From sequence record NC_029091.1: a stretch of 64,000 nt of DNA; one strand, written 5' to 3'. How positions within the stretch are numbered: the first letter of the stretch is position 1; the number at the start of each line of letters is the position of its first letter. The DNA is from Escherichia phage APCEc01. A model generated the notes under the pieces. That model had not been told where the DNA came from. It made no database searches and worked only from the letters and a program-made list of their open reading frames with translations. Positions 1,836 to 58,503 of the stretch are shown piece by piece. Both the position numbers and the translations under genes were made by a program.

Positions 1836-2420
1836 ATGACTCGTCCAACGAGACAGATTTTTAACCAAACAAATATAACAAACTTTGTTGTGGATATCCC
1901 AGATAGTACACGAACTTCAGGTTTTGTGCTCAATGCCCAAACAGCTCCATTGCCAGGTGTGAGAATTCCTGTTGTTGAAACTGTGACAGGCACAATGGGG
2001 TTAGGACGTGCAATGCGTGCAGGCACCACATTTGAATACGACCCTTTTGTTGTACGATTTATAGTTGATGAAGACATGACGTCCTGGATGAACATGTATA
2101 AATGGATGCTCAGCACTAATAACTATATAACCGGACATAATACGGCCCACTCCGATGGTCCTGAGTTTGTTACTTTGCACATTTTAAACAACAATAAGAC
2201 TGAAGTAGTTTTGACGGCGAATTTCTATAAACCATGGATTTCTGATTTGAGTGAAATTGAATTTAGTTACACCGAAGACTCTGACCCTGCCGTTACGTGC
2301 GTAGCAACTATTCACTATGCGTACATGACGATAGAAAAGGATGGTGAAGTCATTGTATCTCAACAACCACGTCAAGCAGTCGAATCTAAATCCATTTCTA
2401 GACACCCTTCCTTGCGTTAA
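1836..2420 (+). CDS. 3: tail completion / sheath stabilizer gp3-like
   Basis: ATG 1836 after GAGG; 194 aa; between gene 2 and gene 1 as in T4. Confidence 0.5.
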   Translation: MTRPTRQIFNQTNITNFVVDIPDSTRTSGFVLNAQTAPLPGVRIPVVETVTGTMGLGRAMRAGTTFEYDPFVVRFIVDEDMTSWMNMYKWMLSTNNYITGHNTAHSDGPEFVTLHILNNNKTEVVLTANFYKPWISDLSEIEFSYTEDSDPAVTCVATIHYAYMTIEKDGEVIVSQQPRQAVESKSISRHPSLR

Positions 2421-2473
2421 TCGCTTCTAGCTCCGTATGTTATAATCACTCATAAATTATATGAGGAAAACCT

Positions 2474-3208
2474 ATGGAGCTAATCTTTTTAAGTGGCATC
2501 AAACGTAGTGGTAAAGACACCACTGCTGATTACATCAATTCAAACTTTAAATCCGTAAAATACCAATTAGCATATCCAATTAAAGACGCTCTAGCAATAG
2601 CCTGGGGACGTAGGCATGCTGAAAATCCTGATGTATTCACAGAGTTGAAATACGAATACTTTGAAGGCATTGGATACGACCGTGAAACACCATTAAATCT
2701 CAATAAGTTGGATGTTATTGAATTATTGGAAGAAGCGCTAATTTATTTGCAAAGTCAATATTTACCGATTAATAATGTTAAAGTATTATCATCGTTAGAA
2801 GGTGGATATTCGTATCTAGATATTAAACCATATGAAGCCCTGCGTGAAGCTATAAATAATATCAACGACACATGGTCAATCCGCCGTCTTATGCAAGCCC
2901 TCGGTACGGATGTTGTCGTTAATTTATTTGACCGTATGTATTGGGTTAAACTTTTTGCATTAAACTATATGGATTATATTGGAAGTGATTTCGATTACTA
3001 TGTTGTGACCGATACACGCCAAGTCCATGAAATGGAAACCGCTAGAGCGATGGGTGCTACAGTTATTCATGTGGTTCGCTCTGGTACGGAATCCACCGAT
3101 AAACATATTACAGAAGCTGGGTTGCCTATTGAAGAAGGCGATTTAGTTATTACAAACGACGGCTCTTTAGAAGAGCTTTATTCTAAAATTGAAACAATCT
3201 TAAGGTAA
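2474..3208 (+). CDS. 1: deoxynucleoside monophosphate kinase gp1
   Basis: 244 aa; N-terminus MELIFLSGIKRSGKDTTADYI with P-loop; close to remembered T4 gp1. Confidence 0.8.
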   Translation: MELIFLSGIKRSGKDTTADYINSNFKSVKYQLAYPIKDALAIAWGRRHAENPDVFTELKYEYFEGIGYDRETPLNLNKLDVIELLEEALIYLQSQYLPINNVKVLSSLEGGYSYLDIKPYEALREAINNINDTWSIRRLMQALGTDVVVNLFDRMYWVKLFALNYMDYIGSDFDYYVVTDTRQVHEMETARAMGATVIHVVRSGTESTDKHITEAGLPIEEGDLVITNDGSLEELYSKIETILR

Positions 3209-20291: not shown

Positions 20292-20635
20292 CCAAAATGT
20301 TGGCTTTAATAGTTGGCTTGGTTTCATTTAACGCTCTTGCTAATACTACATATACTGATGTAACGGAGTATACAAACAGAACGGCGTCTGATTACTGTGG
20401 TAAAAGTCAAGAGTGTAAAGTAGATTTTTCACAAAAATTGTTATATGCGTATAAAGACGGAGAAAAAGACGGGGCGTCTAGTAGGTTCAAGGCGTCTACC
20501 TTAATTAAAAGATACTATAAAAAATGGCAAATATTAGAATGCTCGGTGGCGGAACCTAAAGATAAGGCAGCATGCAATTCTATGGTGGACCGTCTAGTTG
20601 ACTCTTATAATAGAGGACTTGCAGCAAGTGATTAA
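20288..20635 (+). CDS. secreted/periplasmic hypothetical protein
   Basis: 115 aa with N-terminal signal peptide MTKMLALIVGLVSFNALA. Confidence 0.45.
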   Translation: MTKMLALIVGLVSFNALANTTYTDVTEYTNRTASDYCGKSQECKVDFSQKLLYAYKDGEKDGASSRFKASTLIKRYYKKWQILECSVAEPKDKAACNSMVDRLVDSYNRGLAASD

Positions 20636-21095
20636 AAACTATATCAAGGGCGATATTGTCGCCCTGTTTTCTAAAGGTAATAATATTGCTCATGGGTGTA
20701 ATTGTTTTCATACAATGGGCGCGGGTGTGGCAGGACAATTAGCAAAGGCTTATCCAAAAATTCTGGAAGCCGATAAACTTCAAACCGAATTCGGAGACGA
20801 GTCTAAACTCGGGACTTATTCGGTTTATGAAAAATATTTTAAGACCCATAAAGCTTATTGCTTTAATCTTTATACACAGTTTGAGCCGGGACCTAATTTT
20901 GAGTACTCTGCTTTAATGAATTGTATAATAGAATTAAATGAATTCGGAAAGAATAAGATAATAAAGCCTGTAATTTATATGCCAAGAATTGGTGCAGGTA
21001 TTGGTGGTGGAAACTGGGATGTCATCGAAGAGATTTTAGATACGTATTCTACTAAACTAGAAATTGTGATTGTTGATTGGGAACCGTTATTATGA
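20598..21095 (+). CDS. macro domain (ADP-ribose binding/processing) protein; start uncertain
   Basis: HGCNCFHTMGAGVAGQL and PRIGAGIGGGNWDVI match macro-domain glycine-rich motifs; no ATG near 5' end (TTG 20598 or GTG 20628). Confidence 0.55.
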   Translation: MTLIIEDLQQVIKNYIKGDIVALFSKGNNIAHGCNCFHTMGAGVAGQLAKAYPKILEADKLQTEFGDESKLGTYSVYEKYFKTHKAYCFNLYTQFEPGPNFEYSALMNCIIELNEFGKNKIIKPVIYMPRIGAGIGGGNWDVIEEILDTYSTKLEIVIVDWEPLL

Positions 21096-47927: not shown

Positions 47928-50639
47928 ATGAAAGAATTTTACTTAACGGTTGAACAGATTGGTGATTCAATTTTTGAACGTTACATCGATTCTAATGGCC
48001 GTGAACGTACTCGTGAAGTAGAATATAAACCATCACTGTTTGCTCATTGTCCAGAAAGTCAGGCTACGAAATATTTCGATATCTACGGTAAGCCGTGTAC
48101 TCGTAAGTTGTTCGCTAATATGCGTGATGCCTCCCAATGGATTAAACGCATGGAAGATATCGGACTTGAAGCACTTGGCATGGACGATTTCAAATTGGCG
48201 TATTTGTCTGACACTTATAACTATGAAATCAAATACGACCATACAAAAATTCGTGTGGCTAACTTCGACATCGAAGTAACATCTCCGGACGGGTTCCCTG
48301 AGCCGTCACAAGCAAAACATCCGATTGATGCTATCACCCATTATGACTCAATTGACGACAGGTTCTACGTATTTGATCTATTGAATTCTCCATATGGTAA
48401 TGTAGAAGAATGGTCTATTGAAATCGCTGCTAAGCTTCAAGAACAAGGCGGTGATGAAGTTCCATCTGAAATTATCGATAAAATCATTTATATGCCGTTC
48501 GATAACGAAAAAGAATTGTTGATGGAATATCTCAACTTCTGGCAACAGAAAACTCCTGTCATTTTGACTGGATGGAACGTTGAGTCATTTGATATTCCAT
48601 ATGTGTATAACCGAATCAAGAATATTTTTGGCGAATCTACTGCGAAACGTTTATCGCCACATCGTAAAACTCGTGTTAAAGTTATCGAAAACATGTATGG
48701 TTCTCGTGAAATCATTACATTGTTCGGTATCTCTGTTCTTGATTACATTGGCCTTTACAAAAAATTCTCTTTTACCAATCAACCGTCGTATTCTCTGGAT
48801 TACATTTCAGAATTTGAATTGAACGTTGGTAAACTGAAATATGACGGCCCTATTTCTAAGCTTCGTGAAAGCAATCACCAACGATATATTTCTTATAACA
48901 TTATCGACGTGTATCGTGTATTGCAAATTGATGCTAAGCGTCAGTTCATCAACTTGAGCTTGGACATGGGTTATTATGCTAAGATACAGATTCAATCTGT
49001 GTTTAGCCCAATTAAAACATGGGATGCTATTATTTTTAATAGCCTTAAAGAGCAGAACAAGGTGATTCCACAAGGTCGTTCTCACCCGGTTCAACCTTAT
49101 CCCGGCGCTTTTGTTAAGGAACCTATTCCAAATCGATACAAATATGTAATGAGTTTCGACCTTACATCTCTGTATCCAAGTATTATTCGCCAAGTGAATA
49201 TTAGCCCGGAAACAATAGCAGGAACGTTTAAAGTAGCTCCATTGCATGATTATATTAACGCAATCGCTGAACGTCCTTCAGATGTGTACAGTTGCTCTCC
49301 TAACGGCATGATGTATTATAAAGACCGTGATGGTGTAGTTCCAACTGAAATCACTAAGGTCTTTAATCAACGTAAAGAACATAAAGGTTACATGCTTGCA
49401 GCTCAACGTAATGGTGAAATAATTAAAGAGGCATTGCATAATCCTAATCTTTCTGTTGACGAACCATTAGATGTTGATTATCGTTTCGACTTCAGTGATG
49501 AGATTAAAGAAAAGATTAAAAAGTTGTCTGCTAAATCTCTTAATGAAATGTTGTTTAGAGCTCAACGTACTGAAGTTGCAGGTATGACCGCACAAATTAA
49601 CCGTAAATTGCTTATCAACTCACTTTATGGTGCACTTGGCAACGTTTGGTTCCGTTATTATGATTTGCGTAATGCTACTGCAATCACAACATTCGGGCAA
49701 ATGGCTTTACAGTGGATTGAACGTAAAGTTAATGAATATCTGAATGAAGTTTGTGGTACAGAAGGTGAAGCTTTCGTTCTATATGGTGATACAGACTCTA
49801 TTTACGTATCTGCTGATAAAATTATCGATAAGGTTGGTGAATCTAAATTCCGTGATACCAACCATTGGGTAGACTTCTTAGATAAGTTTGCACGTGAACG
49901 TATGGAACCTGCTATTGATAGAGGTTTCCGTGAAATGTGTGAATACATGAACAATAAACAACACTTAATGTTCATGGACCGAGAAGCTATCGCTGGTCCT
50001 CCGCTCGGTTCTAAAGGTATTGGTGGATTCTGGACTGGTAAGAAACGTTATGCATTAAACGTGTGGGATATGGAAGGAACCAGATACGCTGAGCCTAAAC
50101 TCAAAATCATGGGTCTAGAGACTCAGAAATCTTCGACCCCTAAAGCAGTACAGAAAGCTCTTAAAGAATGTATTCGTCGTATGCTTCAAGAAGGTGAAGA
50201 ATCATTACAAGAATATTTTAAAGAGTTTGAAAAAGAATTCCGTCAATTGAATTATATTAGCATCGCGTCGGTATCTTCTGCGAATAACATTGCTAAATAC
50301 GACGTAGGTGGATTCCCGGGTCCTAAATGCCCGTTCCATATTCGTGGAATTCTGACATATAACCGAGCTATCAAAGGTAATATTGATGCACCACAAGTTG
50401 TAGAAGGTGAAAAAGTATATGTTCTGCCTTTACGTGAAGGAAACCCATTCGGTGATAAATGTATCGCATGGCCTTCTGGTACTGAAATCACAGATTTAAT
50501 TAAAGACGATGTACTTCATTGGATGGACTACACTGTTCTCCTTGAGAAGACATTTATTAAACCACTTGAAGGATTCACATCAGCAGCTAAACTCGATTAC
50601 GAGAAGAAAGCATCTCTGTTCGATATGTTTGATTTTTGA
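47928..50639 (+). CDS. 43: DNA polymerase gp43 (family B, with 3'-5' exonuclease)
   Basis: 903 aa; MKEFYLTVEQIGDSIFERYIDSNGRERTREVEYKPSLFAHCPES...; exo motifs FDIEV and NVESFDIPYVY, pol motifs SLYPSII and YGDTDS; matches my memory of the RB69 polymerase. Confidence 0.97.
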   Translation: MKEFYLTVEQIGDSIFERYIDSNGRERTREVEYKPSLFAHCPESQATKYFDIYGKPCTRKLFANMRDASQWIKRMEDIGLEALGMDDFKLAYLSDTYNYEIKYDHTKIRVANFDIEVTSPDGFPEPSQAKHPIDAITHYDSIDDRFYVFDLLNSPYGNVEEWSIEIAAKLQEQGGDEVPSEIIDKIIYMPFDNEKELLMEYLNFWQQKTPVILTGWNVESFDIPYVYNRIKNIFGESTAKRLSPHRKTRVKVIENMYGSREIITLFGISVLDYIGLYKKFSFTNQPSYSLDYISEFELNVGKLKYDGPISKLRESNHQRYISYNIIDVYRVLQIDAKRQFINLSLDMGYYAKIQIQSVFSPIKTWDAIIFNSLKEQNKVIPQGRSHPVQPYPGAFVKEPIPNRYKYVMSFDLTSLYPSIIRQVNISPETIAGTFKVAPLHDYINAIAERPSDVYSCSPNGMMYYKDRDGVVPTEITKVFNQRKEHKGYMLAAQRNGEIIKEALHNPNLSVDEPLDVDYRFDFSDEIKEKIKKLSAKSLNEMLFRAQRTEVAGMTAQINRKLLINSLYGALGNVWFRYYDLRNATAITTFGQMALQWIERKVNEYLNEVCGTEGEAFVLYGDTDSIYVSADKIIDKVGESKFRDTNHWVDFLDKFARERMEPAIDRGFREMCEYMNNKQHLMFMDREAIAGPPLGSKGIGGFWTGKKRYALNVWDMEGTRYAEPKLKIMGLETQKSSTPKAVQKALKECIRRMLQEGEESLQEYFKEFEKEFRQLNYISIASVSSANNIAKYDVGGFPGPKCPFHIRGILTYNRAIKGNIDAPQVVEGEKVYVLPLREGNPFGDKCIAWPSGTEITDLIKDDVLHWMDYTVLLEKTFIKPLEGFTSAAKLDYEKKASLFDMFDF

Positions 50640-50679
50640 TATAATGCCAAGGACGGCCAACTAATTAAATGAGAGAAAT

Positions 50680-51315
50680 ATGAAAACTACTCCTATTACT
50701 ATCGCTATTGACGCAATCGTAAAACAAGCTTCATCTCTTGCCACTATGGCTAAAGTAATTAGTCAAAACCCTGCTCGTTATAATGCTATTCTAGAAACTC
50801 TTCGACGCCCTGGACTTAGTAATTATGAAAGCCGGGTAATTATTACAGGTGTTGGTAAGAATGCTAATATCGCAACTAAAGCTTCCGAGACTTTTGCTTC
50901 ACTAGGTATTCCTAGCATGTATTTGAACACCGGGCATTATTCTCATGGTGACGCAGGATTTATTGCGCCTAATGACGTGTTGATTCATATTAGTCGTTCT
51001 GGTAAAACTGAAGAAATGATAGGTGTTGCTAAACATCTTCGTATGATTCGTCCTCAGGTTAAACAGATTCTGTTACATTGTAACCCAGACATTCCACAAG
51101 AATACGAAGCTCTTTTTGATTATACGTTCTGTACCGGTATCGCGGTAGAAGTTGACGAGAACTCTTTAGCTCCGACTATGTCCACTACATTGTTGTTAGC
51201 GCTTATCGATACGTTTGCTATCAACCTTTCGTCTGAACGTGGATTTACCTCTAATGATTTCCTTAAGTTCCATCCAGGCGGTGCACTAGGTGCCATGTTA
51301 CGAGGCGAACAATGA
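50680..51315 (+). CDS. SIS-domain sugar-phosphate isomerase (KdsD/GutQ-like arabinose-5-phosphate isomerase candidate)
   Basis: 211 aa; SIS motifs ITGVGKNANIATKASETFASLGIP and IHISRSGKTEE; C-terminal FHPGGALGAML as in API enzymes; no CBS domains. Confidence 0.65.
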   Translation: MKTTPITIAIDAIVKQASSLATMAKVISQNPARYNAILETLRRPGLSNYESRVIITGVGKNANIATKASETFASLGIPSMYLNTGHYSHGDAGFIAPNDVLIHISRSGKTEEMIGVAKHLRMIRPQVKQILLHCNPDIPQEYEALFDYTFCTGIAVEVDENSLAPTMSTTLLLALIDTFAINLSSERGFTSNDFLKFHPGGALGAMLRGEQ

Positions 51316-51452
51316 AAGCAATAACAATAGGACTTTTACTATTGATGCTTGTCATGACTATCTACTGGAGCTTAACGGCTCCGGTAATGATTCCAACACT
51401 TGTAATTGGATGGATTATGATTGGACTACAAGCAAAGTATGAATGCTTTAAC
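51312..51452 (+). CDS. small hydrophobic membrane peptide (46 aa; possible Imm-like remnant)
   Basis: ATG 51312 overlaps upstream stop; MKAITIGLLLLMLVMTIYWSLTAPVMIPTLVIGWIMIGLQAKYECFN; below track size threshold. Confidence 0.4.
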
Positions 51453-51496
51453 TAGAATAGTGTACAATACTCCTACTTACCAATGAGGACTTCAAC

Positions 51497-53182
51497 ATGA
51501 AAAAAGCTGTTATTCTTGGTGCTGGACTGGCAACTCGTTTGTATCCAATAACGCATCATATTCCTAAGGTGCTTGTTAATTATAAACAAGACACTATTCT
51601 GAGCAATTTGTATACAATTTATTCTGACCTTGGCGCAGATGAAATTATTGTAGTAGTTCATTCAAAATTTGCTGAAACTGTTCGAGCTTATTGTGAGCAA
51701 GAAGGGTTCAATGTGACTATTCGTACAGTTGATGAAGCGTATGGTTCTGCTTATGCTCTTGCTAAATTACACAAAGATTTAGACGGCCATAATGTAATTG
51801 TTAACTGGTGTGATATTATTCCTGATTTTGGTTCATGGTCTTGGAATGTTAACGCAATCTATGTTAAGGGTGACGAATGTCGATATAATTTCGACGGTGA
51901 AAATATCACTAACGTAGGTTCAACAGGTGGTAATGTTGTAGGAATTTATCAGTTCAAAGACTGGGAATTCTATATGGGTTCTACCGATGAGGAAATTCAT
52001 GAATACTGCAAAGGACGTGATTTCGTAGAATTCCTTTACGGCAGCGCATTCAATAAATCAGAGCTTATGAATATAATTGATTTAGGTGATATGCCTAAAC
52101 TTGAAAAGGCTCATGAAGTTCGTGAACTTAATCGTAGTTTTAATGCAGTTGAAATTGGTGAAGAAACTGTAACTAAATTCGCATTAACCGAACAGGGTCG
52201 AGCTCTTCAGAAAGATGAGATTTCGTGGTATTTGAAAGTGAAATCAGATTCAGTTCCTCAGTTAGTTTCTGTTAATGAAAATAACTTTGAAATGGAACGC
52301 ATTAAAGGTAAGCCAGCATTTGAATATATTAAATCCAAATCAAGTCTTGCTCGTCCACAAATTGTTGATGCAATTTTAGATGCACTGAAATTCAGCACAG
52401 ACACTTATTTTGTAAGTCCTGAAACTGTTCGTCGTGATTTCACTAAAGAATTCTATACGAAAGTTATTGATCGTTGTGAAAGCATTCAACCGTTGATTGA
52501 TTCATTTGGTAAAATCACACATGTGAACTACACTAAGATTGGACGTCTGAAGCCAATGCTGAAACAAGCTTTAGAACACCTTATTCGGTATCATAACCGT
52601 TCTCAGGGACAGTACTCTGTTATTCACGGTGACCCGAACTTCAGTAATACTATGATTACTGATAACGGCGAAGTCAAGTTTATCGACCCTCGTGGATATT
52701 TTGGCGAAACCAAGATTTACGGGCCAAAATTGTATGATGAAGCTAAAGTGCTTTATGCTGTTTCAGGTTATGATGAATTCAATGCTAATCCGACCTGGGG
52801 GCAGTTTACTATTGATGAAACAACTTGTAATGTGACTATTAACATCAATCCATTAGTTTACAAATATGGAAAGATGAGTTCGTTTAACGAGTATCATCAT
52901 TTGGCAGTGGCAATTATCTGGATTGCATTAGGTGGTTATTTCAAGAATAATCCACTTAAAGCGGTAGCCGCATATTATAAAGGTATGGAACTTCTGACTA
53001 AGCAATTACGTAACATGGGCCGTGTACTTCAGGACGGCTCTATTAGTTATGACGTAGCAGAACCTGTAACGGCTACTCTGATTACAAAAAATCCTGGTAA
53101 ATGGGTACTAACTGATAAAGAAACTGGTGTTTCCTATCGTCCAATCGGTGGCGATATCACTCATCAATGGGAACGAATCTAA
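51497..53182 (+). CDS. bifunctional sugar-1-phosphate nucleotidyltransferase / anomeric sugar kinase (APH-ChoK fold)
   Basis: 561 aa; N-terminal AVILGAGLATRLYPITHHIPKVLV pyrophosphorylase signature; C-terminal IHGDPNFSNTMITDNGEVKFIDPRGYFG matches the HxDxxxxN catalytic loop and Dxx metal motif of APH/choline-kinase-like kinases. Confidence 0.7.
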   Translation: MKKAVILGAGLATRLYPITHHIPKVLVNYKQDTILSNLYTIYSDLGADEIIVVVHSKFAETVRAYCEQEGFNVTIRTVDEAYGSAYALAKLHKDLDGHNVIVNWCDIIPDFGSWSWNVNAIYVKGDECRYNFDGENITNVGSTGGNVVGIYQFKDWEFYMGSTDEEIHEYCKGRDFVEFLYGSAFNKSELMNIIDLGDMPKLEKAHEVRELNRSFNAVEIGEETVTKFALTEQGRALQKDEISWYLKVKSDSVPQLVSVNENNFEMERIKGKPAFEYIKSKSSLARPQIVDAILDALKFSTDTYFVSPETVRRDFTKEFYTKVIDRCESIQPLIDSFGKITHVNYTKIGRLKPMLKQALEHLIRYHNRSQGQYSVIHGDPNFSNTMITDNGEVKFIDPRGYFGETKIYGPKLYDEAKVLYAVSGYDEFNANPTWGQFTIDETTCNVTININPLVYKYGKMSSFNEYHHLAVAIIWIALGGYFKNNPLKAVAAYYKGMELLTKQLRNMGRVLQDGSISYDVAEPVTATLITKNPGKWVLTDKETGVSYRPIGGDITHQWERI

Positions 53183-53568
53183 TGCACCGTGTAGAAAACA
53201 TGCTTAATCTTTGTTTTGATGTCGATGATTGTATAACAGAGTGGAATAACAATCGTGATTACGTGAACTTCAAACCTGACGTCGAAATGGTGTCTGCCAT
53301 TAATGCCCTGTATGATGCAGGGCATACCATAACGCTTTACACTGCTCGCGGTATGAAGTCAGTAGGTCCTGGTCGTATAGCAATTGACATTCTCCCAAGT
53401 CTTATTCAGAACTTGGCAAACATTGGCTTGAAGTACCATAATTTGCTAACACATAAACCAGTATATGATTGGATTATCGACGACAAAGCTATGCGTCCTG
53501 ACGAATTCAAAGCTCTTATGAATAAAGGCGAATTCGAAACATTTAAATCATATAAACCGAATCTATAA
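53182..53568 (+). CDS. HAD-superfamily phosphatase
   Basis: ATG 53182 overlapping upstream stop (TAATG); 128 aa; motif I DVDDCIT near N-terminus, TARG and DDK motifs downstream. Confidence 0.6.
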   Translation: MHRVENMLNLCFDVDDCITEWNNNRDYVNFKPDVEMVSAINALYDAGHTITLYTARGMKSVGPGRIAIDILPSLIQNLANIGLKYHNLLTHKPVYDWIIDDKAMRPDEFKALMNKGEFETFKSYKPNL

Positions 53569-53628
53569 TAATTTAAGTAAGACCTGCAAAAAAAAACCAT
53601 CGCATCAATTAACGCGAGATGCAAAAAA

Positions 53629-54789
53629 ATGAATACTTTTAAAATCGGAACGAATTTTGATTTAGCTCTTCTTGATAAAATCGTAGAGCTCAATAAAACT
53701 TATCCTAATAGCTTGATAAATGAAGTATACGGCTCTACAAGAGAAATGGCTTTTGTAGCAGCCAGACCTGATTTTAGGCTTCCTGACGTTGACAAAAAGA
53801 TGTTAGAAGATTACGTTAAACGTTGTAACGAATTAGGTATTTGCTTTAACTATACACTCAACACGATAAATCCTGGTTCAAAAAGAGAACTAGTTGAGTG
53901 GAAGAAGAAAGCTATTCAGGATTATGTTCAGTATCTTTGGTCAATAGGCGTATGGCGTATTACTATCGCTAACCCTGTTGTTATGGAAATTGTTCGTGAA
54001 GTCAATAAAGACATTGAGATTGAAGTTTCAACAATTCTACATGTCGATGCTGTAACTCAAATCAAATACTTGCATGACCAATATAATATCAAAAAGGTCT
54101 GCTGTGGAATTCATAAGAACCGTTCAGTTTCTTTCCTGAAGCGTGCAGCAGAGTTTTGCAATAAGAACAATATAATATTTGAAGTTCTTGTAAATGAGTT
54201 CTGTTCTAATGCTGGTAAAGGGTATACAACACATTGTAGCTATCGTGACTCTTGCTATATTTTCCATAGTACTGATGTTACAGCTGATGATGCTAAATCC
54301 TTAAACGGATATCCTATGCAGCACTGTATTAAAGCTCGTGATACAGACCCATTTAACTGGTTGAGAACTCGTTTTGTTCGTCCTCAAGATTTGAAACTTT
54401 ATAATGATATTGGTATCACTCAATTCAAAGTTTCAGGACGTACAGGTAGCACAGACTACATTTTGAAAGTTCTTGAAGCATACGCTTCTGAAAAGTTTGA
54501 AGGTAATTTGTTAGAACTGTGGAAGCCTTTAGAGACTATTTTCACTCTTGAAAACGAAACTGAGTTTTCACATACAGTAAATATTGAAACCTCTTTGTTA
54601 GATGGCTTTTTAGAAAAAAGGTGGTTCAGACATCCAGATTTCGATTGTGCTAATGAAATCTGCGGGACGACGTGTACATATTGTGAAAGATATTATAAAC
54701 GTCAATTATCTAAAAACGGGTTAGCAGAAAACTCTATATCTATTATTGATATAACTAACTCTGATGACGCTTTGAGGTACCCGGAATGA
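53629..54789 (+). CDS. Cys-cluster enzyme of unknown function (possible U32-like/TIM-barrel or transferase)
   Basis: 386 aa; internal EFCSNAGKGYTTHCSYRDSCY and C-terminal CANEICGTTCTYCERYY Cys clusters; family not confidently recognised. Confidence 0.5.
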   Translation: MNTFKIGTNFDLALLDKIVELNKTYPNSLINEVYGSTREMAFVAARPDFRLPDVDKKMLEDYVKRCNELGICFNYTLNTINPGSKRELVEWKKKAIQDYVQYLWSIGVWRITIANPVVMEIVREVNKDIEIEVSTILHVDAVTQIKYLHDQYNIKKVCCGIHKNRSVSFLKRAAEFCNKNNIIFEVLVNEFCSNAGKGYTTHCSYRDSCYIFHSTDVTADDAKSLNGYPMQHCIKARDTDPFNWLRTRFVRPQDLKLYNDIGITQFKVSGRTGSTDYILKVLEAYASEKFEGNLLELWKPLETIFTLENETEFSHTVNIETSLLDGFLEKRWFRHPDFDCANEICGTTCTYCERYYKRQLSKNGLAENSISIIDITNSDDALRYPE

Positions 54790-55025
54790 TTTCTAGAAAA
54801 ACTTTTAACCACCAACTTAATGAAGAGATTTTGACTATGAAACTGAACACTAATGAACAAATTCTTAAAAAGGCCCATCAGGGCCTTTTTGAAACTAAAG
54901 CGGCTAAAGTGATTAAAGAACCTGTTCAATTAGAATACTACGCTGATGCATTTCTTCATAGTGTTCTTGGAAGTATCGATGCCGAAGCTTTACGTTATAT
55001 CAATATTGCCAAGAAATTCAAATAA
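54786..55025 (+). CDS. hypothetical protein
   Basis: 79 aa; ATGA overlap with upstream gene. Confidence 0.45.
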   Translation: MISRKTFNHQLNEEILTMKLNTNEQILKKAHQGLFETKAAKVIKEPVQLEYYADAFLHSVLGSIDAEALRYINIAKKFK

Positions 55026-55047
55026 GCTTTACGAATTGAGTATATAA
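55023..55047 (+). promoter_or_regulatory. candidate MotA-dependent middle promoter for gene 42
   Basis: AAGCTTTA MotA-box-like sequence 11 nt upstream of TATAAT at 55042. Confidence 0.4.
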
Positions 55048-55066
55048 TAATTGTATTGAGGTAAAC

Positions 55067-55783
55067 ATGGGAAAACATAACACAATGAAATATATCAAAG
55101 CCGCAGATTTTCAAACCGCATTTAAAGCAGTCAATCGTGAAATTTTAGAAAACCCGGAATTCGTAACTGATTCTCGTATTGGACGTTGTAATGAAATTGG
55201 GTCTATGACAGTAGTTGTTGACACTCCATCATCATTCAAAATGACCGACCCACGTATTAACCGCATCTCTTATGAATATGCCGAAGACTTCTGGAAGTTT
55301 ATGATTTCTGGTGGTACCAACGCAGAAGAAGCGTTTAAGGCATATCCTAATGTCGCTAAATTTATTTCTAAACCAAAATCAGATGTTTTGCCGGCGAACT
55401 TCAACACTTTCTATGGTCCTCGCATTGCGGCTCAATTACCAGCTCTTCTAAAAGAACTTAAAGAGAAGCCTAACTCCCGAAGAGTTGTGTTCCAAATTCT
55501 AGAAAGTTCTGATCAGGCTTTGCTTGATTCGGACGAAACGCTTGAATATCCATGTACTGACTCAGTGACTTATTATATTCGTGATGGTAAGCTTTATACC
55601 CACTGTCATATGCGTTCTCAGAACTGTGCTGTTGTTATGCAGTTGGATTTTTATCTCCAAGGAAAATTACTTCATTATATCGCTAACGAATGTGGTGTAG
55701 AAGTTGGTGATTATACTCATACCATGGTAAGTGCCCATGTGTTTGAACGTGATTTTGATTATGTTAAAGGATTCCTTGACTAA
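55067..55783 (+). CDS. 42: dCMP hydroxymethylase gp42 (thymidylate-synthase fold)
   Basis: 238 aa; TS-family landmarks SRRVVFQ, nucleophile PCTD, MRSQNCAVVMQLDF, SAHVF; only TS-like gene here; position between 43 and uvsX as in T4. Confidence 0.7.
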   Translation: MGKHNTMKYIKAADFQTAFKAVNREILENPEFVTDSRIGRCNEIGSMTVVVDTPSSFKMTDPRINRISYEYAEDFWKFMISGGTNAEEAFKAYPNVAKFISKPKSDVLPANFNTFYGPRIAAQLPALLKELKEKPNSRRVVFQILESSDQALLDSDETLEYPCTDSVTYYIRDGKLYTHCHMRSQNCAVVMQLDFYLQGKLLHYIANECGVEVGDYTHTMVSAHVFERDFDYVKGFLD

Positions 55784-56682
55784 TGGCTATTTTCCGCGTA
55801 CCTATCTTGAGTATGCGGTCTTATGAAACTGGACAGTATGCTATCCTTAAGGATGGCAACTTCCAACTTCATTTGCACCGTGCTAATCCGGGTGATGTGA
55901 TTACATATCCACGTAATGCATCTGATATTAAAGAATGCGAACGTCTTTTTCCAGAATTTAAGTTTGTTCCATTATGGTATAAAGATAACGCGTATAACAC
56001 TCGTAAATATTTCTGGTCTGAAAATGAATTTGTGGTTGATTCATTAATTGCTTATTATGACTGTGATTTTCTAATCACAGATATCACTGGATATGACGGC
56101 GCTTTTGATGTGGAATTCAATTTCAATATCACTGCAGACCCTAATAAACCACGTTTTTATATTGACGAATTCTTAAAAACCGATATGTTGTCGGTTAATC
56201 GTTCACTTCAAACTACTGTGTTGAATGAACGTCAAAAAGAAGTGCTGGTTAACGCTGGTGCAGATGGTAATAAGATTATCGTAACGCAGAAAGTTATACG
56301 TCCTTCCATCATGCAGCGTCTTGTAGGTGATTTGGCTCCTATTCATCTAGATGGTATTTTTCATCCATTTCGAATTAGTGACCCATGCTATCGTTTTGAA
56401 CAAGTTGTTGAATGCGCAATTCAATTAGGTCAACCGCTTTATATAACCGATCCAAATAATAGCTTCGACAGAAATAAGTATCCTGAAGAAGCGTTGATTC
56501 GAATTTTTAAACCAACTAAAACTGAGTACTATCAAATTCTTAAAGGACGTCCGAAAATTCAATATTTCGAAAATCCTGAAGAAGTATTCCATCCAGGTCT
56601 TGGTGAGTTCATCTACTTTAATGCTTTAATTTCTTCGCCGTATAATATACCTAAATATGAAGATGTCGTAATCGAGGAATAA
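55783..56682 (+). CDS. hypothetical protein occupying the beta-glucosyltransferase position (candidate modification enzyme)
   Basis: 299 aa; no resemblance to remembered T4 beta-gt; ATGG overlap with gene 42 stop. Confidence 0.5.
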   Translation: MAIFRVPILSMRSYETGQYAILKDGNFQLHLHRANPGDVITYPRNASDIKECERLFPEFKFVPLWYKDNAYNTRKYFWSENEFVVDSLIAYYDCDFLITDITGYDGAFDVEFNFNITADPNKPRFYIDEFLKTDMLSVNRSLQTTVLNERQKEVLVNAGADGNKIIVTQKVIRPSIMQRLVGDLAPIHLDGIFHPFRISDPCYRFEQVVECAIQLGQPLYITDPNNSFDRNKYPEEALIRIFKPTKTEYYQILKGRPKIQYFENPEEVFHPGLGEFIYFNALISSPYNIPKYEDVVIEE

Positions 56683-56683
56683 A

Positions 56684-57232
56684 ATGGCTAAAATTATTTT
56701 AGTAGATGGCCCAGATAATGCTGGTAAAACAACTTTCATTAATGTCATAATGGAAATTAGTGAAAGATATGTAAAGATTGATTTCCCTAAACGAACAGTT
56801 GATGGGCGTTTCGATGTTAAGTCTCGAAATGAAGTTGGCTGTTTCGAAACGATGTTGAATTATTTAGACCCTACTAAGATTTATCTGTTAGACCGTGGAT
56901 ATATTAGTAACTGGGTTTATGGACGTATTCGACAAGATGCGGACTCGATTCTTGACGTTTATGAACAGGACTATGTTCGTCTTTGCCAAAACCATGATGT
57001 GTTCACAATTATTTTAACACGTAACGAAATGACTGAAAGTTTTGAAGACGACCTTATTACTTTGTCTTCATTCGGTTTTAATACAGTCATTTCACATTTT
57101 GAAGAGTTTGCAATTCATAACAAAATCCAAACGTATCAATTACTTAATCATGATGGTGCTAACAAAGTTATAGGATTTAATGCAAGCGAACGTAATTATT
57201 TGATTACAGAAATTATCAAATGGGCTCGTTAA
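56684..57232 (+). CDS. P-loop nucleotide/nucleoside kinase-like protein
   Basis: 182 aa; Walker A ILVDGPDNAGKTT, DRGY segment; resembles dNMP/thymidylate-kinase-like P-loop kinases. Confidence 0.5.
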   Translation: MAKIILVDGPDNAGKTTFINVIMEISERYVKIDFPKRTVDGRFDVKSRNEVGCFETMLNYLDPTKIYLLDRGYISNWVYGRIRQDADSILDVYEQDYVRLCQNHDVFTIILTRNEMTESFEDDLITLSSFGFNTVISHFEEFAIHNKIQTYQLLNHDGANKVIGFNASERNYLITEIIKWAR

Positions 57233-57251
57233 GAGCCATTTAAAGTTTTAA

Positions 57252-57277
57252 ATGCTGTATAACCCTTAGTATATAAT
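57252..57277 (+). promoter_or_regulatory. candidate middle promoter for uvsX
   Basis: AAATGCTGTA (MotA-box-like) 11 nt upstream of TATAAT at 57272. Confidence 0.35.
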
Positions 57278-57330
57278 CATCTTATCTTTTAAACATGAGT
57301 AAAATATAATGATGCCTATGGAAAAATACA

Positions 57331-58503
57331 ATGTCTGATTTAAAATCTCGTCTGATTAAAGCTTCTACTTCTAAAATGACTGCAGACTTGACTAAGTCTA
57401 AGCTGTTTAATAATCGTGATGAAGTCCCTACTCGTATTCCGATGTTGAATATTGCACTAGGTGGTGCACTGAATGCTGGGTTGCAATCAGGCTTAACTAT
57501 TTTTGCTGCTCCTTCTAAACACTTTAAAACATTGTTTGGGCTGACCATGGTTGCAGCATATATGAAGAAATATAAAGATGCAATCTGTTTGTTTTATGAC
57601 TCAGAATTCGGTGCTTCAGAATCTTATTTTCGTTCAATGGGTGTTGATTTAGACCGTGTAGTTCATACTCCGATTCAATCTGTCGAACAACTTAAAGTTG
57701 ATATGACTAATCAGCTTGACGCGATTGAACGCGGTGATAAAGTTATTATCTTTATCGATTCAATCGGTAATACTGCATCTAAGAAAGAAACCGAAGATGC
57801 GTTGAACGAGAAAGTTGTAGGTGATATGTCTCGTGCTAAGGCACTTAAATCTCTGTTCCGCATTGTGACCCCGTATCTGACTATTAAAGATATTCCGTGT
57901 GTTGCAATTAACCATACCGCAATGGAAATCGGCGGACTATATCCTAAAGAGATTATGGGTGGTGGTACAGGTATTCTTTACTCTGCTAACACTGTATTCT
58001 TTATCTCTAAACGTCAGGTTAAAGAAGGTACAGAATTGACCGGTTATGACTTCACGTTGAAAGCAGAAAAATCTCGTACAGTTAAAGAGAAATCTACTTT
58101 CCCGATCACGGTTAATTTTGATGGCGGTATTGATCCATTCAGTGGCTTGTTAGAAATGGCAACTGAAATTGGATTTGTTGTTAAGCCTAAAGCTGGTTGG
58201 TATGCTCGTGAATTCCTTGACGAAGAAACAGGTGAAATGATTCGTGAAGAGAAATCGTGGCGTGCTAAAGCTACTGATTGTGTAGAATTCTGGGGTCCGT
58301 TGTTTAAACACAAACCTTTCCGTGACGCAATTGAAACTAAATATAAACTAGGTGCTATCTCTTCTATTAAAGAAGTTGATGACGCTGTTAATGACCTTAT
58401 TAATTGCAAAGCAACAACTAAAGTTCCGGTTAAAACTTCTGATGCTCCGTCTGCAGCAGATATAGAAAACGACCTTGACGAAATGGAAGATTTCGATGAA
58501 TAA
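57331..58503 (+). CDS. uvsX: recombinase UvsX (RecA-like)
   Basis: 390 aa; MSDLKSRLIKASTSKMTADLTKSKLFNNRDEVPTRIPMLNIALGG...; Walker A GPSKHFKT; matches T4 UvsX. Confidence 0.93.
   Translation: MSDLKSRLIKASTSKMTADLTKSKLFNNRDEVPTRIPMLNIALGGALNAGLQSGLTIFAAPSKHFKTLFGLTMVAAYMKKYKDAICLFYDSEFGASESYFRSMGVDLDRVVHTPIQSVEQLKVDMTNQLDAIERGDKVIIFIDSIGNTASKKETEDALNEKVVGDMSRAKALKSLFRIVTPYLTIKDIPCVAINHTAMEIGGLYPKEIMGGGTGILYSANTVFFISKRQVKEGTELTGYDFTLKAEKSRTVKEKSTFPITVNFDGGIDPFSGLLEMATEIGFVVKPKAGWYAREFLDEETGEMIREEKSWRAKATDCVEFWGPLFKHKPFRDAIETKYKLGAISSIKEVDDAVNDLINCKATTKVPVKTSDAPSAADIENDLDEMEDFDE

What the first reader, a model, noticed from the sequence alone, without database searches (positions are those of the whole stretch)
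56684..57232. Extra P-loop kinase between gene 42 and uvsX despite a canonical dNMP kinase (gp1) elsewhere in the window
Walker A ILVDGPDNAGKTT and overall size resemble dNMP/thymidylate-type or small sugar-kinase P-loop enzymes. Gene 1 (2474..3208) already supplies the dNMP kinase, so this second kinase may phosphorylate a modified nucleotide or a sugar intermediate.
Basis: inference. Interest (0 to 1): 0.5.

Follow-up and report, generated by a model that had tools for sequence, protein, structure and literature searches.

The report
Thymidylate-kinase-like gene in 5-hydroxycytosine cluster
The ORF is a real, conserved, thymidylate-kinase-fold P-loop kinase, the ortholog of phage RB69 gp45. 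It is the last gene of the already described cluster that gives RB69-like phages arabinosylated 5-hydroxycytosine DNA, and its exact substrate is untested in every paper I could read.

Summary
The window is a Mosigvirus (RB69-like) genome. The protein is identical to deposited proteins named 'hypothetical protein' or 'thymidylate kinase', and 97.8% identical to RB69 ORF045c. Lee et al. (NAR 2026) list that ORF, without an assay, as a 'nucleotide kinase' in the gp45-gp55 cluster for arabinosyl-5-hydroxycytosine.

The neighbouring 'gene 42' is therefore a 5-hydroxy-dCMP synthase, not a hydroxymethylase, and a glycosyltransferase lies between it and the kinase.

- **Families ruled out:** it is not a T4 gp1-type dNMP kinase and not a 5-hmdU DNA kinase.
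- **Context:** it sits inside the cluster in nearly all of 342 phage genomes. Distant relatives sit beside other dCMP-modifying ThyA homologs.

Best reading, at about 0.5: an ATP-dependent kinase for a C5-modified dCMP, either 5-hydroxy-dCMP or a glycosylated derivative. The main caveat is that the gp1-type kinase already phosphorylates 5-hydroxy-dCMP in vitro.

This is a known gene with an open substrate question. Interest is modest.

The parts
56684..57232 (+). The finding: a 182-aa TMK-fold P-loop kinase, ortholog of RB69 ORF045c (gp45), DLP3 gp78 and Thanatos TH1_064.
55783..56682 (+). Putative first DNA/nucleotide arabinosyltransferase (GT1; RB69 gp46:47, DLP3 gp79). Its stop codon lies one base before the kinase ATG.
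   Evidence: phrog_3891, E 3e-156. Annotated as glycosyltransferase in NRG-P0074. Role proposed but not reconstituted in PMC13326640. Syntenic in 15 of 17 loci.
55067..55783 (+). 5-hydroxy-dCMP synthase, a thymidylate-synthase homolog (RB69 gp48).
   Evidence: Pfam Thymidylat_synt, E 2.3e-15. PDB 9iqc/9ir2, E 7.9e-161. 'MRSQN' = D169N signature.
54786..55025 (+). Conserved 79-aa ORF of unknown function (phrog_8601). By its position it should be the RB69 gp49 equivalent, which was not checked.
53629..54789 (+). Peptidase-U32-family protein (RB69 gp50). Its role in the cluster is unknown.
   Evidence: Pfam PF01136, E 7.3e-11. phrog_5757. Weak UbiU hit. Listed as 'sugar or heterocycle reductase' in PMC13326640.
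53167..53568 (+). AfhF-like HAD phosphatase (RB69 gp51): Araf-1,5-P2 to Araf-1-P.
51497..53182 (+). AfhE-like bifunctional Ara-5-P kinase / UDP-arabinose pyrophosphorylase (RB69 gp52:53).
50680..51315 (+). Arabinose-5-phosphate isomerase (RB69 gp55).
   Evidence: 98% identical to the HY126 gene annotated as D-arabinose-5-phosphate isomerase.
2474..3208 (+). gp1-type dNMP kinase (RB69 gp159 ortholog). In RB69 this enzyme was shown to convert 5hodCMP to 5hodCDP.
   Evidence: Pfam DNMK PF21448, E 1.4e-96. Activity reported in PMC13326640.

Best explanation
The ORF is the Mosigvirus copy of RB69 gp45. It is a divergent thymidylate-kinase-fold nucleoside-monophosphate kinase and a fixed component of the gene module that replaces cytosine with glycosylated 5-hydroxycytosine.

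**Proposed mechanism (inferred).** It binds ATP-Mg through the P-loop (G9..G14-K15-T16). It binds a 2'-deoxy-pyrimidine 5'-monophosphate through the TMK-type acceptor site: P-loop Asp11, the FPK(R) loop, Phe54 on the base-stacking helix, and Asp70-Arg71 with Ser75..Tyr79. It then transfers the gamma-phosphate to make the diphosphate.

**Likely acceptor.** The acceptor is most likely a C5-modified dCMP made by the adjacent synthase. That is 5-hydroxy-dCMP, or possibly a glycosylated derivative of it. The role would be to pull the modified nucleotide into the dNTP pool, alongside or beyond what the gp1-type kinase does.

**Shown here:** ORF reality, conservation, fold, motifs and genomic linkage.
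**Inferred:** kinase activity and the identity of the acceptor.
For: **1. Fold**
- Foldseek's top hits are TMKs (yeast 3tmk, E 6e-7).

**2. Sequence link to TMKs**
- The family profile reaches bona fide Pfam TMKs in a 1.84-billion-protein library. One example is P0162 (109 bits to PF02223), reached at E 3.9e-5.
- The joint alignment shares G9, G14, K15, T17, D70, R71, S75 and Y79, and D11 in at least 90% of the sequences.
- The profile aligns to vaccinia TMK over the P-loop and the 'FPxR' loop.

**3. Linkage to the cluster**
- In 15 of the 17 loci from IMG/VR, the kinase lies next to or within the cluster of isomerase, AfhE-like, AfhF-like, synthase and GT1 genes. The same holds in VR5, a Klebsiella phage, Thanatos-1, PM2, Providencia PSTRCR_127 and DLP3.
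- The kinase start often overlaps the stop codon of the upstream gene.

**4. The kinase tracks the modified base, not the sugar**
- RL38J1 attaches galactose and glucose to 5hoC, and still has a TMK-like kinase, a GT and the synthase as neighbours.
- A 47-kb metagenomic contig has a family member beside a ThyA homolog with the D169N signature (MRSNN), an FMN reductase, an isomerase and an AfhE-like gene.
- A PolA-type phage contig has the order kinase-like, MazG-like pyrophosphatase, unknown ORF, dCMP-type ThyA homolog, unknown ORF, polymerase. That is the classic set for replacing a base at the nucleotide-pool level.

**5. Charge**
- All 22 aligned family members are acidic (pI 4.75-5.83), like gp1 (4.73). 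The proven DNA kinase M6 gp54 has pI 8.66.

**6. Published label**
- Lee et al. 2026 independently label RB69 gp45, DLP3 gp78 and RL38J1 gp214 as 'nucleotide kinase'.
Against: - **Possible redundancy.** RB69 gp159 (gp1-type) converts 5hodCMP to 5hodCDP in vitro. Synthase plus gp159 is enough for 5hodC to enter E. coli DNA, and the synthase alone gives traces. A plain 5hodCMP kinase would therefore be redundant.
- **Coexistence.** Both kinase types coexist in Straboviridae and in Pootjesviridae.
- **An orphan copy.** Morganella phage MP1 keeps an intact copy with the conserved motifs. No synthase, GT1, AfhE-like or isomerase gene was found in the 132 of 163 kb I examined.
- **Below family thresholds.** The protein scores 12.2 bits against the Pfam TMK cut-off of 27, and 17 bits against the TIGR00041 cut-off of 83.
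- **Missing arginines.** The P-loop has Asn12 where type-I TMKs have Arg. The lid region reads F-x-D-D-L-I instead of the Arg-rich TMK lid (the comparison with TMK motifs is from my own knowledge).
- **No assay seen.** I found no assay of this protein. Two key papers, He et al. 2026 Nat Chem Biol and Mahler et al. 2025 Cell Host Microbe, are not held and could not be read.
Confidence: 0.5

Rival explanations
1. It is an ordinary dTMP kinase, as RefSeq, PHROGs and several GenBank records name it. It would boost dTTP supply for an AT-rich genome.
For: - TMKs are the closest fold.
- It is annotated as 'thymidylate kinase' in many records and in phrog_761.
- MP1 keeps the gene without the 5hoC cluster.
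Against: - It is far below the curated TMK thresholds.
- gp1-type kinases already phosphorylate dTMP (established for T4 gp1, from my own knowledge).
- The gene is found almost only in phages carrying the 5hoC cluster, and inside that cluster.
- On my own motif mapping, the position four residues after the stacking Phe54, where TMKs have the thymine-O4-binding Arg, is Leu58. This was not structurally verified.
Confidence: 0.12
2. The first sugar is added at the mononucleotide level. GT1 arabinosylates 5-hydroxy-dCMP, and this kinase is the dedicated enzyme that phosphorylates the bulky arabinosyl-5-O-dCMP, which gp1 cannot handle. This would explain why two kinases coexist.
For: - GT1 and the kinase are adjacent, and their coding regions abut or overlap, in Mosigvirus, DLP3, Thanatos and Providencia phages.
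- Lee et al. saw no arabinosylation when individual GTs were given UDP-Araf or UDP-Arap and 5hoC-DNA. [quoted passage not shown]
- gp1 already covers unglycosylated 5hodCMP.
- GT1 proteins are acidic (pI 4.7-5.6), while the GT2/GT3 proteins range from 5.7 to 7.2. DLP3 gp76/gp77 are the ones shown to act on DNA. This is weak evidence.
Against: - As far as I know, every characterised phage DNA glycosylation occurs after replication.
- In VR5 and the Klebsiella phage the kinase is not next to GT1.
- 5hodC is incorporated into DNA without any GT.
- The papers I could not read may already show GT1 acting on DNA.
Confidence: 0.12
3. It phosphorylates a sugar or sugar phosphate of the arabinose pathway.
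For: - The gene lies in a cluster with sugar-activating enzymes.
Against: - Ara-5-P to UDP-Araf is already fully assigned to AfhE and AfhF.
- The TMK-specific DR..S..Y acceptor motif and the P-loop Asp are invariant.
- A kinase in the same syntenic position persists in RL38J1, which lacks the arabinose pathway. A related kinase is also present in the L020 module, which has no sugar genes.
Confidence: 0.07
4. It acts on DNA, phosphorylating 5-hydroxycytosine residues in the polymer, by analogy with the 5-hmdU DNA kinases of thymidine-hypermodifying phages.
For: - Distant family members (P0059, P0060) are fused to a helix-hairpin-helix HhH-GPD DNA-glycosylase-like domain. P0059 was found inside a 5hoC-type cluster.
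- That architecture recalls SP10 gp186, which fuses a 5-HMUDK to an aGPT-Pplase.
Against: - There is no hit to Pfam PF18748 (HMUDK), which M6 gp54 hits at 65 bits.
- hhalign against M6 gp54 aligns only the P-loop region, and M6 gp54 has no DR motif.
- The two proteins fall in different PHROGs, 761 against 800.
- The family is acidic, while M6 gp54 has pI 8.66.
- Glycosylating a hydroxyl from a UDP-sugar needs no phosphate activation (inference).
Confidence: 0.05

Closest known systems
RB69 gp45 (ORF045c), DLP3 gp78 and Thanatos TH1_064: 'nucleotide kinase' of the arabinosyl-5-hydroxycytosine cluster (Lee et al., NAR 2026, PMC13326640)
   Same: It is the same protein family and an ortholog. It is 97.8% identical to RB69 ORF045c, holds the same position after GT1 and before uvsX, and has the same TMK-like predicted fold.
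   Different: Nothing substantive differs. The window is simply another Mosigvirus isolate, about 98.9% identical in DNA to MM02 and JK42. In that paper the role was assigned from structure prediction only and was not assayed.
Thymidylate kinase family (Pfam PF02223, TIGR00041; e.g. vaccinia 2v54, yeast 3tmk)
   Different: - It is 20-30 residues shorter and only 12-19% identical.
- It is below the curated HMM cut-offs.
- It has Asn instead of the type-I P-loop Arg.
- Its lid is short and acidic, with an invariant F-x-DDLI.
- It has its own invariant 'RNEV..FET' helix.
- It is restricted to phages with C5-modified cytosine pathways.
T4 gp1-type dNMP kinase (Pfam PF21448), present in this window at 2474..3208
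   Same: Both are phage-encoded P-loop kinases acting, or presumed to act, on dNMPs in the modified-dCTP supply line.
[quoted passage not shown]
   Same: Both are small phage P-loop kinases encoded next to a thymidylate-synthase homolog in a base-hypermodification cluster. Distant relatives of the ORF are fused to a helix-hairpin-helix glycosylase-fold domain, as SP10 gp186 is.
   Different: - The Pfam and PHROG families differ.
- Only the P-loop region aligns.
- The charge is opposite.
- The host-phage distributions are disjoint.

Membership tests
Thymidylate kinase (PF02223 / TIGR00041) | Walker A P-loop GxxxxGK[ST] with a conserved Asp two to three residues before the GK | tested here: met
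   G9-P-D11-N-A-G14-K15-T16, invariant in 22 homologs. Shared with bona fide TMKs in alignment A2.
Thymidylate kinase (PF02223 / TIGR00041) | Acceptor-site DR[YHF] motif followed by S..(A/V)Y | tested here: met
   D70-R71-G-Y-I-S75-N-W-V-Y79. D70, R71, S75 and Y79 are invariant across the family and in Pfam-confirmed TMKs P0162, P0083, P0173 and P0142. The third residue is Gly rather than Tyr, His or Phe.
Thymidylate kinase (PF02223 / TIGR00041) | Score above the curated family thresholds | tested here: not met
   PF02223: 12.2 bits against a cut-off of 27. TIGR00041: 17 bits against a cut-off of 83.25.
Thymidylate kinase (PF02223 / TIGR00041) | TMK three-dimensional fold | tested here: met
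Thymidylate kinase (PF02223 / TIGR00041) | Catalytic Arg in the P-loop (type I) or an Arg-rich lid (type II) | tested here: inconclusive
   The P-loop position is Asn12, which is invariant. The lid region has one invariant Arg (R113), followed by an invariant F120-x-D122-D123-L-I. The mapping onto TMK lids rests on my own knowledge of TMK motifs, and this is the region of lowest confidence in the model, with a block mean of 65.
Thymidylate kinase (PF02223 / TIGR00041) | dTMP phosphorylation activity | not testable with these tools
   Needs an enzyme assay.
RB69 gp45 / phrog_761 kinases of glycosyl-5-hydroxycytosine clusters | Close sequence similarity to RB69 ORF045c | tested here: met
   97.8% identity over 182 aa (H44). 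phrog_761, E 2.7e-44.
RB69 gp45 / phrog_761 kinases of glycosyl-5-hydroxycytosine clusters | Encoded in a cluster with a D169N-type 5hodCMP synthase and GT1 | tested here: met
   The synthase (MRSQN) is at 55067..55783 and GT1 at 55783..56682, directly upstream. The same linkage holds in 15 of 17 IMG/VR loci and in six further genomes.
5-hmdU DNA kinase (PF18748) | Match to the HMUDK_HMUD1 profile or to a proven member | tested here: not met
   No PF18748 hit at E <= 1, while M6 gp54 scores 65 bits. hhalign against M6 gp54 aligns only the P-loop region. PHROG 761 against 800.
5-hmdU DNA kinase (PF18748) | Co-occurrence with an aGPT-Pplase / amino-acid:DNA transferase | tested here: not met
   No such gene is present in the window cluster. 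Only distant relatives carry a fused HhH-GPD-like domain.
T4 gp1-type dNMP kinase (PF21448) | Match to the DNMK profile or fold | tested here: not met

The most novel reading that the evidence does not exclude
The extra kinase exists because the first sugar is attached before replication. GT1 would arabinosylate 5-hydroxy-dCMP, and this TMK-like enzyme would phosphorylate the resulting arabinosyl-5-O-dCMP. The phage polymerase would then incorporate a ready-glycosylated dNTP. As far as I know, that would be the first pre-replicative DNA glycosylation pathway in a virus. It would also explain why the first arabinosylation could not be reconstituted on 5hoC-DNA, and why two dNMP kinases coexist.
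Probability: 0.1. Interest if true: 0.8.

Novelty: already known. Interest (0 to 1): 0.3.

Why it matters
The gene is one of the unassigned components of the recently described pathway that gives RB69-like, Acinetobacter, Serratia and Shewanella phages arabinosylated 5-hydroxycytosine DNA. That modification shapes their sensitivity to restriction, CRISPR and type IV systems.

Knowing what this kinase phosphorylates would settle two questions. It would show whether the pathway needs a dedicated kinase in addition to gp1. It might also show whether the first glycosylation happens on nucleotides or on DNA. Both matter for reconstituting the modification in vitro or in engineered phages.

As a genome-scan finding it is ordinary: a conserved gene, already catalogued, correctly recognised as a kinase.

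Tried and rejected
- **Membership in the 5-hmdU DNA kinase family.** I fetched the proven enzyme M6 gp54 (L022:16686-17249). It is Pfam PF18748 and phrog_800, is basic, and aligns to this ORF only around the P-loop. Rejected.
- **Direct sequence match to a solved structure.** phmmer found only noise (thioredoxin, ABC transporters). The family profile found concatenated RecA chains through a repeated P-loop match, and TMKs only weakly.
- **Promoter and terminator scan of 50500..57450.** It found fewer promoter-like sites than shuffled sequence gives, so it was uninformative.
- **The two papers most likely to have assayed the protein.** He et al. 2026 Nat Chem Biol and Mahler et al. 2025 Cell Host Microbe are not held. 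Searches on Afh gene names returned only noise.
- **Other papers checked.**
  - The Thanatos, Durham-collection, CMoRE, Thomas 2018 and transposon-mutagenesis papers say nothing about this kinase.
  - Iyer et al. 2013 is not held.
- **RL38J1 gp214 as a sequence homolog.** hhalign probability is only 42%. I treat it as an analogous TMK-like kinase in the same syntenic position, not as a family member.
- **pI as a discriminator of DNA-acting against nucleotide-acting enzymes.** The trend exists but is too weak to carry weight.
- **A relocated synthase in Morganella phage MP1.** None was found in 1-82 kb or 113-163 kb. The 82-113 kb stretch was not read. It is flanked by baseplate genes on both sides, so I assume it is structural.

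Full report
**1. The observation**

The ORF at 56684..57232 (+) is present exactly as described. It has an ATG start and encodes 182 aa. Residues 4-17 read IILVDGPDNAGKTT, which includes the Walker A motif. A GAGGAA Shine-Dalgarno sequence lies in the last codons of the upstream gene, whose stop codon ends one base before this ATG.

The ORF is a real gene:
- The exact protein is deposited many times. It occurs on 64 contigs, in a 148-member cluster at 90% identity.
- tblastn finds it in 342 phage records.
- Thirty-seven positions are invariant in an alignment of 22 homologs that go down to 44% identity.
- Rough dN/dS within Mosigvirus is 0.1-0.3, from small counts.
- AlphaFold2 gives a confident alpha/beta model, with pLDDT 87.9 and pTM 0.85.

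The 'canonical dNMP kinase' at 2474..3208 is confirmed by Pfam DNMK, E 1.4e-96.

**2. Where the window comes from and what surrounds the gene**

The region is 98-99% identical in DNA to Mosigvirus phages such as MM02, JK42, phiC120 and HY126. The protein is 97.8% identical to RB69 ORF045c.

The gene order in the window is:
- DNA polymerase gp43
- arabinose-5-P isomerase (50680..51315)
- a 561-aa AfhE-like enzyme (51497..53182)
- an AfhF-like HAD phosphatase (53167..53568)
- a U32-family protein (53629..54789)
- a 79-aa ORF (54786..55025)
- a thymidylate-synthase homolog (55067..55783)
- a 299-aa glycosyltransferase (55783..56682)
- this kinase (56684..57232)
- uvsX (57331..58503)

This is the RB69 gp45-gp55 cluster described by Lee et al. 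(NAR 2026, PMC13326640). RB69 DNA carries mono- and di-arabinosylated 5-hydroxycytosine, not arabinosyl-hmC. The thymidylate-synthase homolog (gp48) is a flavin-dependent 5-hydroxy-dCMP synthase.

The window's copy has the diagnostic D169N signature (MRSQN). It matches the solved chain 9iqc_A over its full length, E 7.9e-161.

The kinase is also separated from it by the putative first arabinosyltransferase.

**3. What kind of protein it is**

Curated HMMs see little:
- Pfam gives only sub-threshold P-loop hits, with Thymidylate_kin at 12.2 bits against a cut-off of 27.
- NCBIfam dTMP kinase gives 17 bits against a cut-off of 83.
- PHROGs places it in phrog_761 'thymidylate kinase', E 2.7e-44.

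Structure is clearer:
- Foldseek's best PDB hits are thymidylate kinases.

A profile of the family, searched against 1.84 billion representative proteins, finds only 307 proteins at E <= 1e-3. At the weak end these include Pfam-confirmed TMKs, such as P0162.

A joint alignment shares the P-loop (G9, D11, G14, K15, T17) and the TMK acceptor motif (D70-R71 ... S75 ... Y79). The profile also aligns to vaccinia TMK through the 'FPxR' loop.

The family-specific invariant features are:
- Asn12, where type-I TMKs have Arg
- the helix R48-N-E-V..F54-E-T
- R113
- a short acidic lid, F120-x-D-D-L-I

On that basis it is a divergent member of the TMK superfamily. It is not a member of the curated dTMP-kinase family.

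**4. Families it does not belong to**

It is not a gp1-type dNMP kinase.

I tested the attractive idea that it is a relative of the 5-hmdU DNA kinases, which phosphorylate a base in DNA (PMC5889632, PMC8989533). The proven enzyme M6 gp54:
- hits Pfam PF18748 at 65 bits, which the ORF does not hit at all
- falls in a different PHROG
- aligns with the ORF's family only around the P-loop and lacks the DR motif
- is basic (pI 8.66), whereas all 22 aligned family members are acidic, pI 4.75-5.83

**5. Genomic linkage**

Of 17 related loci pulled from IMG/VR, 15 have the kinase adjacent to the synthase/GT1 pair or within the cluster. The same holds in:
- Dhakavirus VR5
- a Klebsiella phage
- Shewanella phage Thanatos-1
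- Proteus phage PM2
- Providencia phage PSTRCR_127
- Acinetobacter phage DLP3

The position within the cluster varies. The kinase follows GT1 in most genera and follows the phosphatase in VR5 and the Klebsiella phage. Its coding region usually overlaps or abuts its upstream neighbour.

The association follows the modified base rather than the sugar:
- Rhizobium phage RL38J1 carries galactosyl/glucosyl-5hoC. It has a TMK-like kinase (gp214), a GT (gp215) and the synthase (gp216) side by side, plus a separate gp1-type kinase (gp219). gp214 is barely similar in sequence to this family.
- A 47-kb metagenomic contig carries a family member next to a ThyA homolog with the D169N signature (MRSNN), an FMN reductase, an isomerase and an AfhE-like gene.
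- A PolA-type phage contig has the order kinase-like, MazG-like pyrophosphatase, unknown ORF, dCMP-type ThyA homolog, unknown ORF, polymerase. That is the standard toolkit for replacing a base at the nucleotide-pool level.

The one clear exception is Morganella phage MP1. It keeps an intact copy between gp43 and uvsX, but I found no synthase, GT1, AfhE-like or isomerase gene in the 132 of 163 kb I examined. It does retain a dCTPase-like gene, DenB and gp1.

**6. Most likely mechanism**

The TMK-type ATP and acceptor sites and the acidic, small-molecule-enzyme character point to an ATP-dependent nucleoside-monophosphate kinase. So does the tight linkage to enzymes that make C5-modified dCMP. 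The acceptor would be 5-hydroxy-dCMP or a derivative of it.

The fold, motifs and linkage are shown. The activity and the substrate are inferred.

The main difficulty is redundancy. RB69 gp159 (gp1-type) phosphorylates 5-hydroxy-dCMP in vitro and is sufficient, with the synthase, for incorporation into E. coli DNA. Both kinase types nevertheless coexist in two phage families.

There are two possible ways out:
- The kinase travelled with the synthase as a self-sufficient cassette and now adds capacity.
- The kinase handles a substrate that gp1 cannot.

The second possibility connects to an open point in Lee et al. Individual GTs given UDP-arabinose did not modify 5hoC-DNA. [quoted passage not shown] A kinase for arabinosyl-5-O-dCMP is therefore the most novel reading that my evidence does not exclude. 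I rate it at about 0.1.

**7. Rivals**

- **Plain dTMP kinase, 0.12.** This is the database name. It is weakened by the sub-threshold scores, by the restriction of the gene to 5hoC phages, and by gp1 already covering dTMP.
- **Sugar-phosphate kinase, 0.07.** It is weakened because AfhE and AfhF already complete the UDP-arabinose route, and because a kinase persists where there is no arabinose pathway.
- **DNA-level kinase, 0.05.** Its only support is the fusion of distant relatives to an HhH-GPD-like domain. The failed 5-HMUDK tests and the acidic pI count against it.

**8. Novelty and verdict**

The gene is already catalogued. Identical proteins are in GenBank, RefSeq calls them thymidylate kinase, and the 2026 NAR paper lists the RB69 ortholog as a putative nucleotide kinase of the cluster. 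The modification chemistry was wrong, since the base is 5-hydroxy rather than hydroxymethyl.

What remains open is the substrate, which a simple enzyme assay can settle. Two papers that may bear on it could not be read. I score interest as modest, at 0.3.

Noticed in passing
window 53629..54789 (+): A peptidase-U32-family gene sits in the cluster (RB69 gp50).
- From my own knowledge, this family includes the O2-independent hydroxylases UbiU/UbiV, TrhP and RlhA. There is a weak UbiU hit, E 9e-4.
- The flavin-dependent 5hodCMP synthase needs O2, so this gene might provide an anaerobic route to 5-hydroxycytosine.
- The gene is absent from the three Acinetobacter-type loci (L017-L019), whose hosts are strict aerobes, and also from VR5. 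It is present in enterobacterial, Proteus, Providencia and Shewanella phages.
   Followed up: partly
L016 / NC_031020 (Morganella phage MP1), kinase gp031 at record 20500..21030: MP1 keeps an intact copy of the kinase between gp43 and uvsX. It lacks the synthase, GT1, AfhE-like, AfhF-like, U32 and isomerase genes in 132 of 163 kb examined. It still encodes a dCTPase-like protein, DenB and gp1. It is unclear which cytosine it puts in its DNA and what the orphan kinase does there.
   Followed up: partly
L023 8001..9074 (P0059; contig JAXOUH010003483.1 of GCA_034680565.1): Distant family members of 314-357 aa fuse the kinase to a C-terminal domain that, in P0059 and P0060, gives weak HhH-GPD (DNA-glycosylase-like) hits.
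- P0059 lies between a ThyA homolog with the D169N signature and an FMN reductase, an isomerase and an AfhE-like gene.
- I recognised no GT in the 12.8 kb I held.
- The architecture recalls the kinase-aGPT-Pplase fusion of SP10 gp186.
   Followed up: partly
L020 10001..13131 (IMG/VR contig of 47.8 kb): A PolA-type phage contig has a compact module in this order: kinase-like ORF (33% identity over a partial match), MazG-like pyrophosphatase, 282-aa unknown ORF, ThyA homolog that keeps D169 but has the dCMP-type Asp, 182-aa unknown ORF, DNA polymerase. This is probably a different C5-cytosine replacement pathway using the same kinase family.
   Followed up: partly
It has the MRSQN (D169N) signature and matches the solved structures 9iqc, 9ir2 and 9iqu, which are deposited simply as 'Thymidylate synthase'.
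   Followed up: yes
L022 16686..17249 (M6 gp54); L001 1..1486 and 2198..2572 (NRG-P0074): Some public annotations look misleading.
- The experimentally proven 5-hmdU DNA kinase M6 gp54, and phrog_800 as a whole, are labelled 'terminase small subunit'.
- The AfhE-like enzyme is labelled 'dCMP deaminase' in NRG-P0074.
- The HAD phosphatase is labelled 'phosphoheptose isomerase' in NRG-P0074, VR5 and the Klebsiella phage.
   Followed up: no
L001 1471..2232, compared with window 53167..53182: Phage NRG-P0074 has a homing-endonuclease gene inserted between the AfhE-like and AfhF-like genes. In the window these two genes overlap directly. uvsX is likewise interrupted by homing endonucleases in Thanatos-1 and Proteus phage PM2.
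   Followed up: no
L024 6090..6992 (Thanatos TH1_063, GT1 ortholog): The GT1 ortholog of Thanatos was reported to form UDP-xylose from UTP and xylose-1-P in vitro, and was called a pyrophosphorylase (PMC12838424). That sits oddly with its proposed role as the first DNA arabinosyltransferase, a role that has not been reconstituted on 5hoC-DNA.
   Followed up: no
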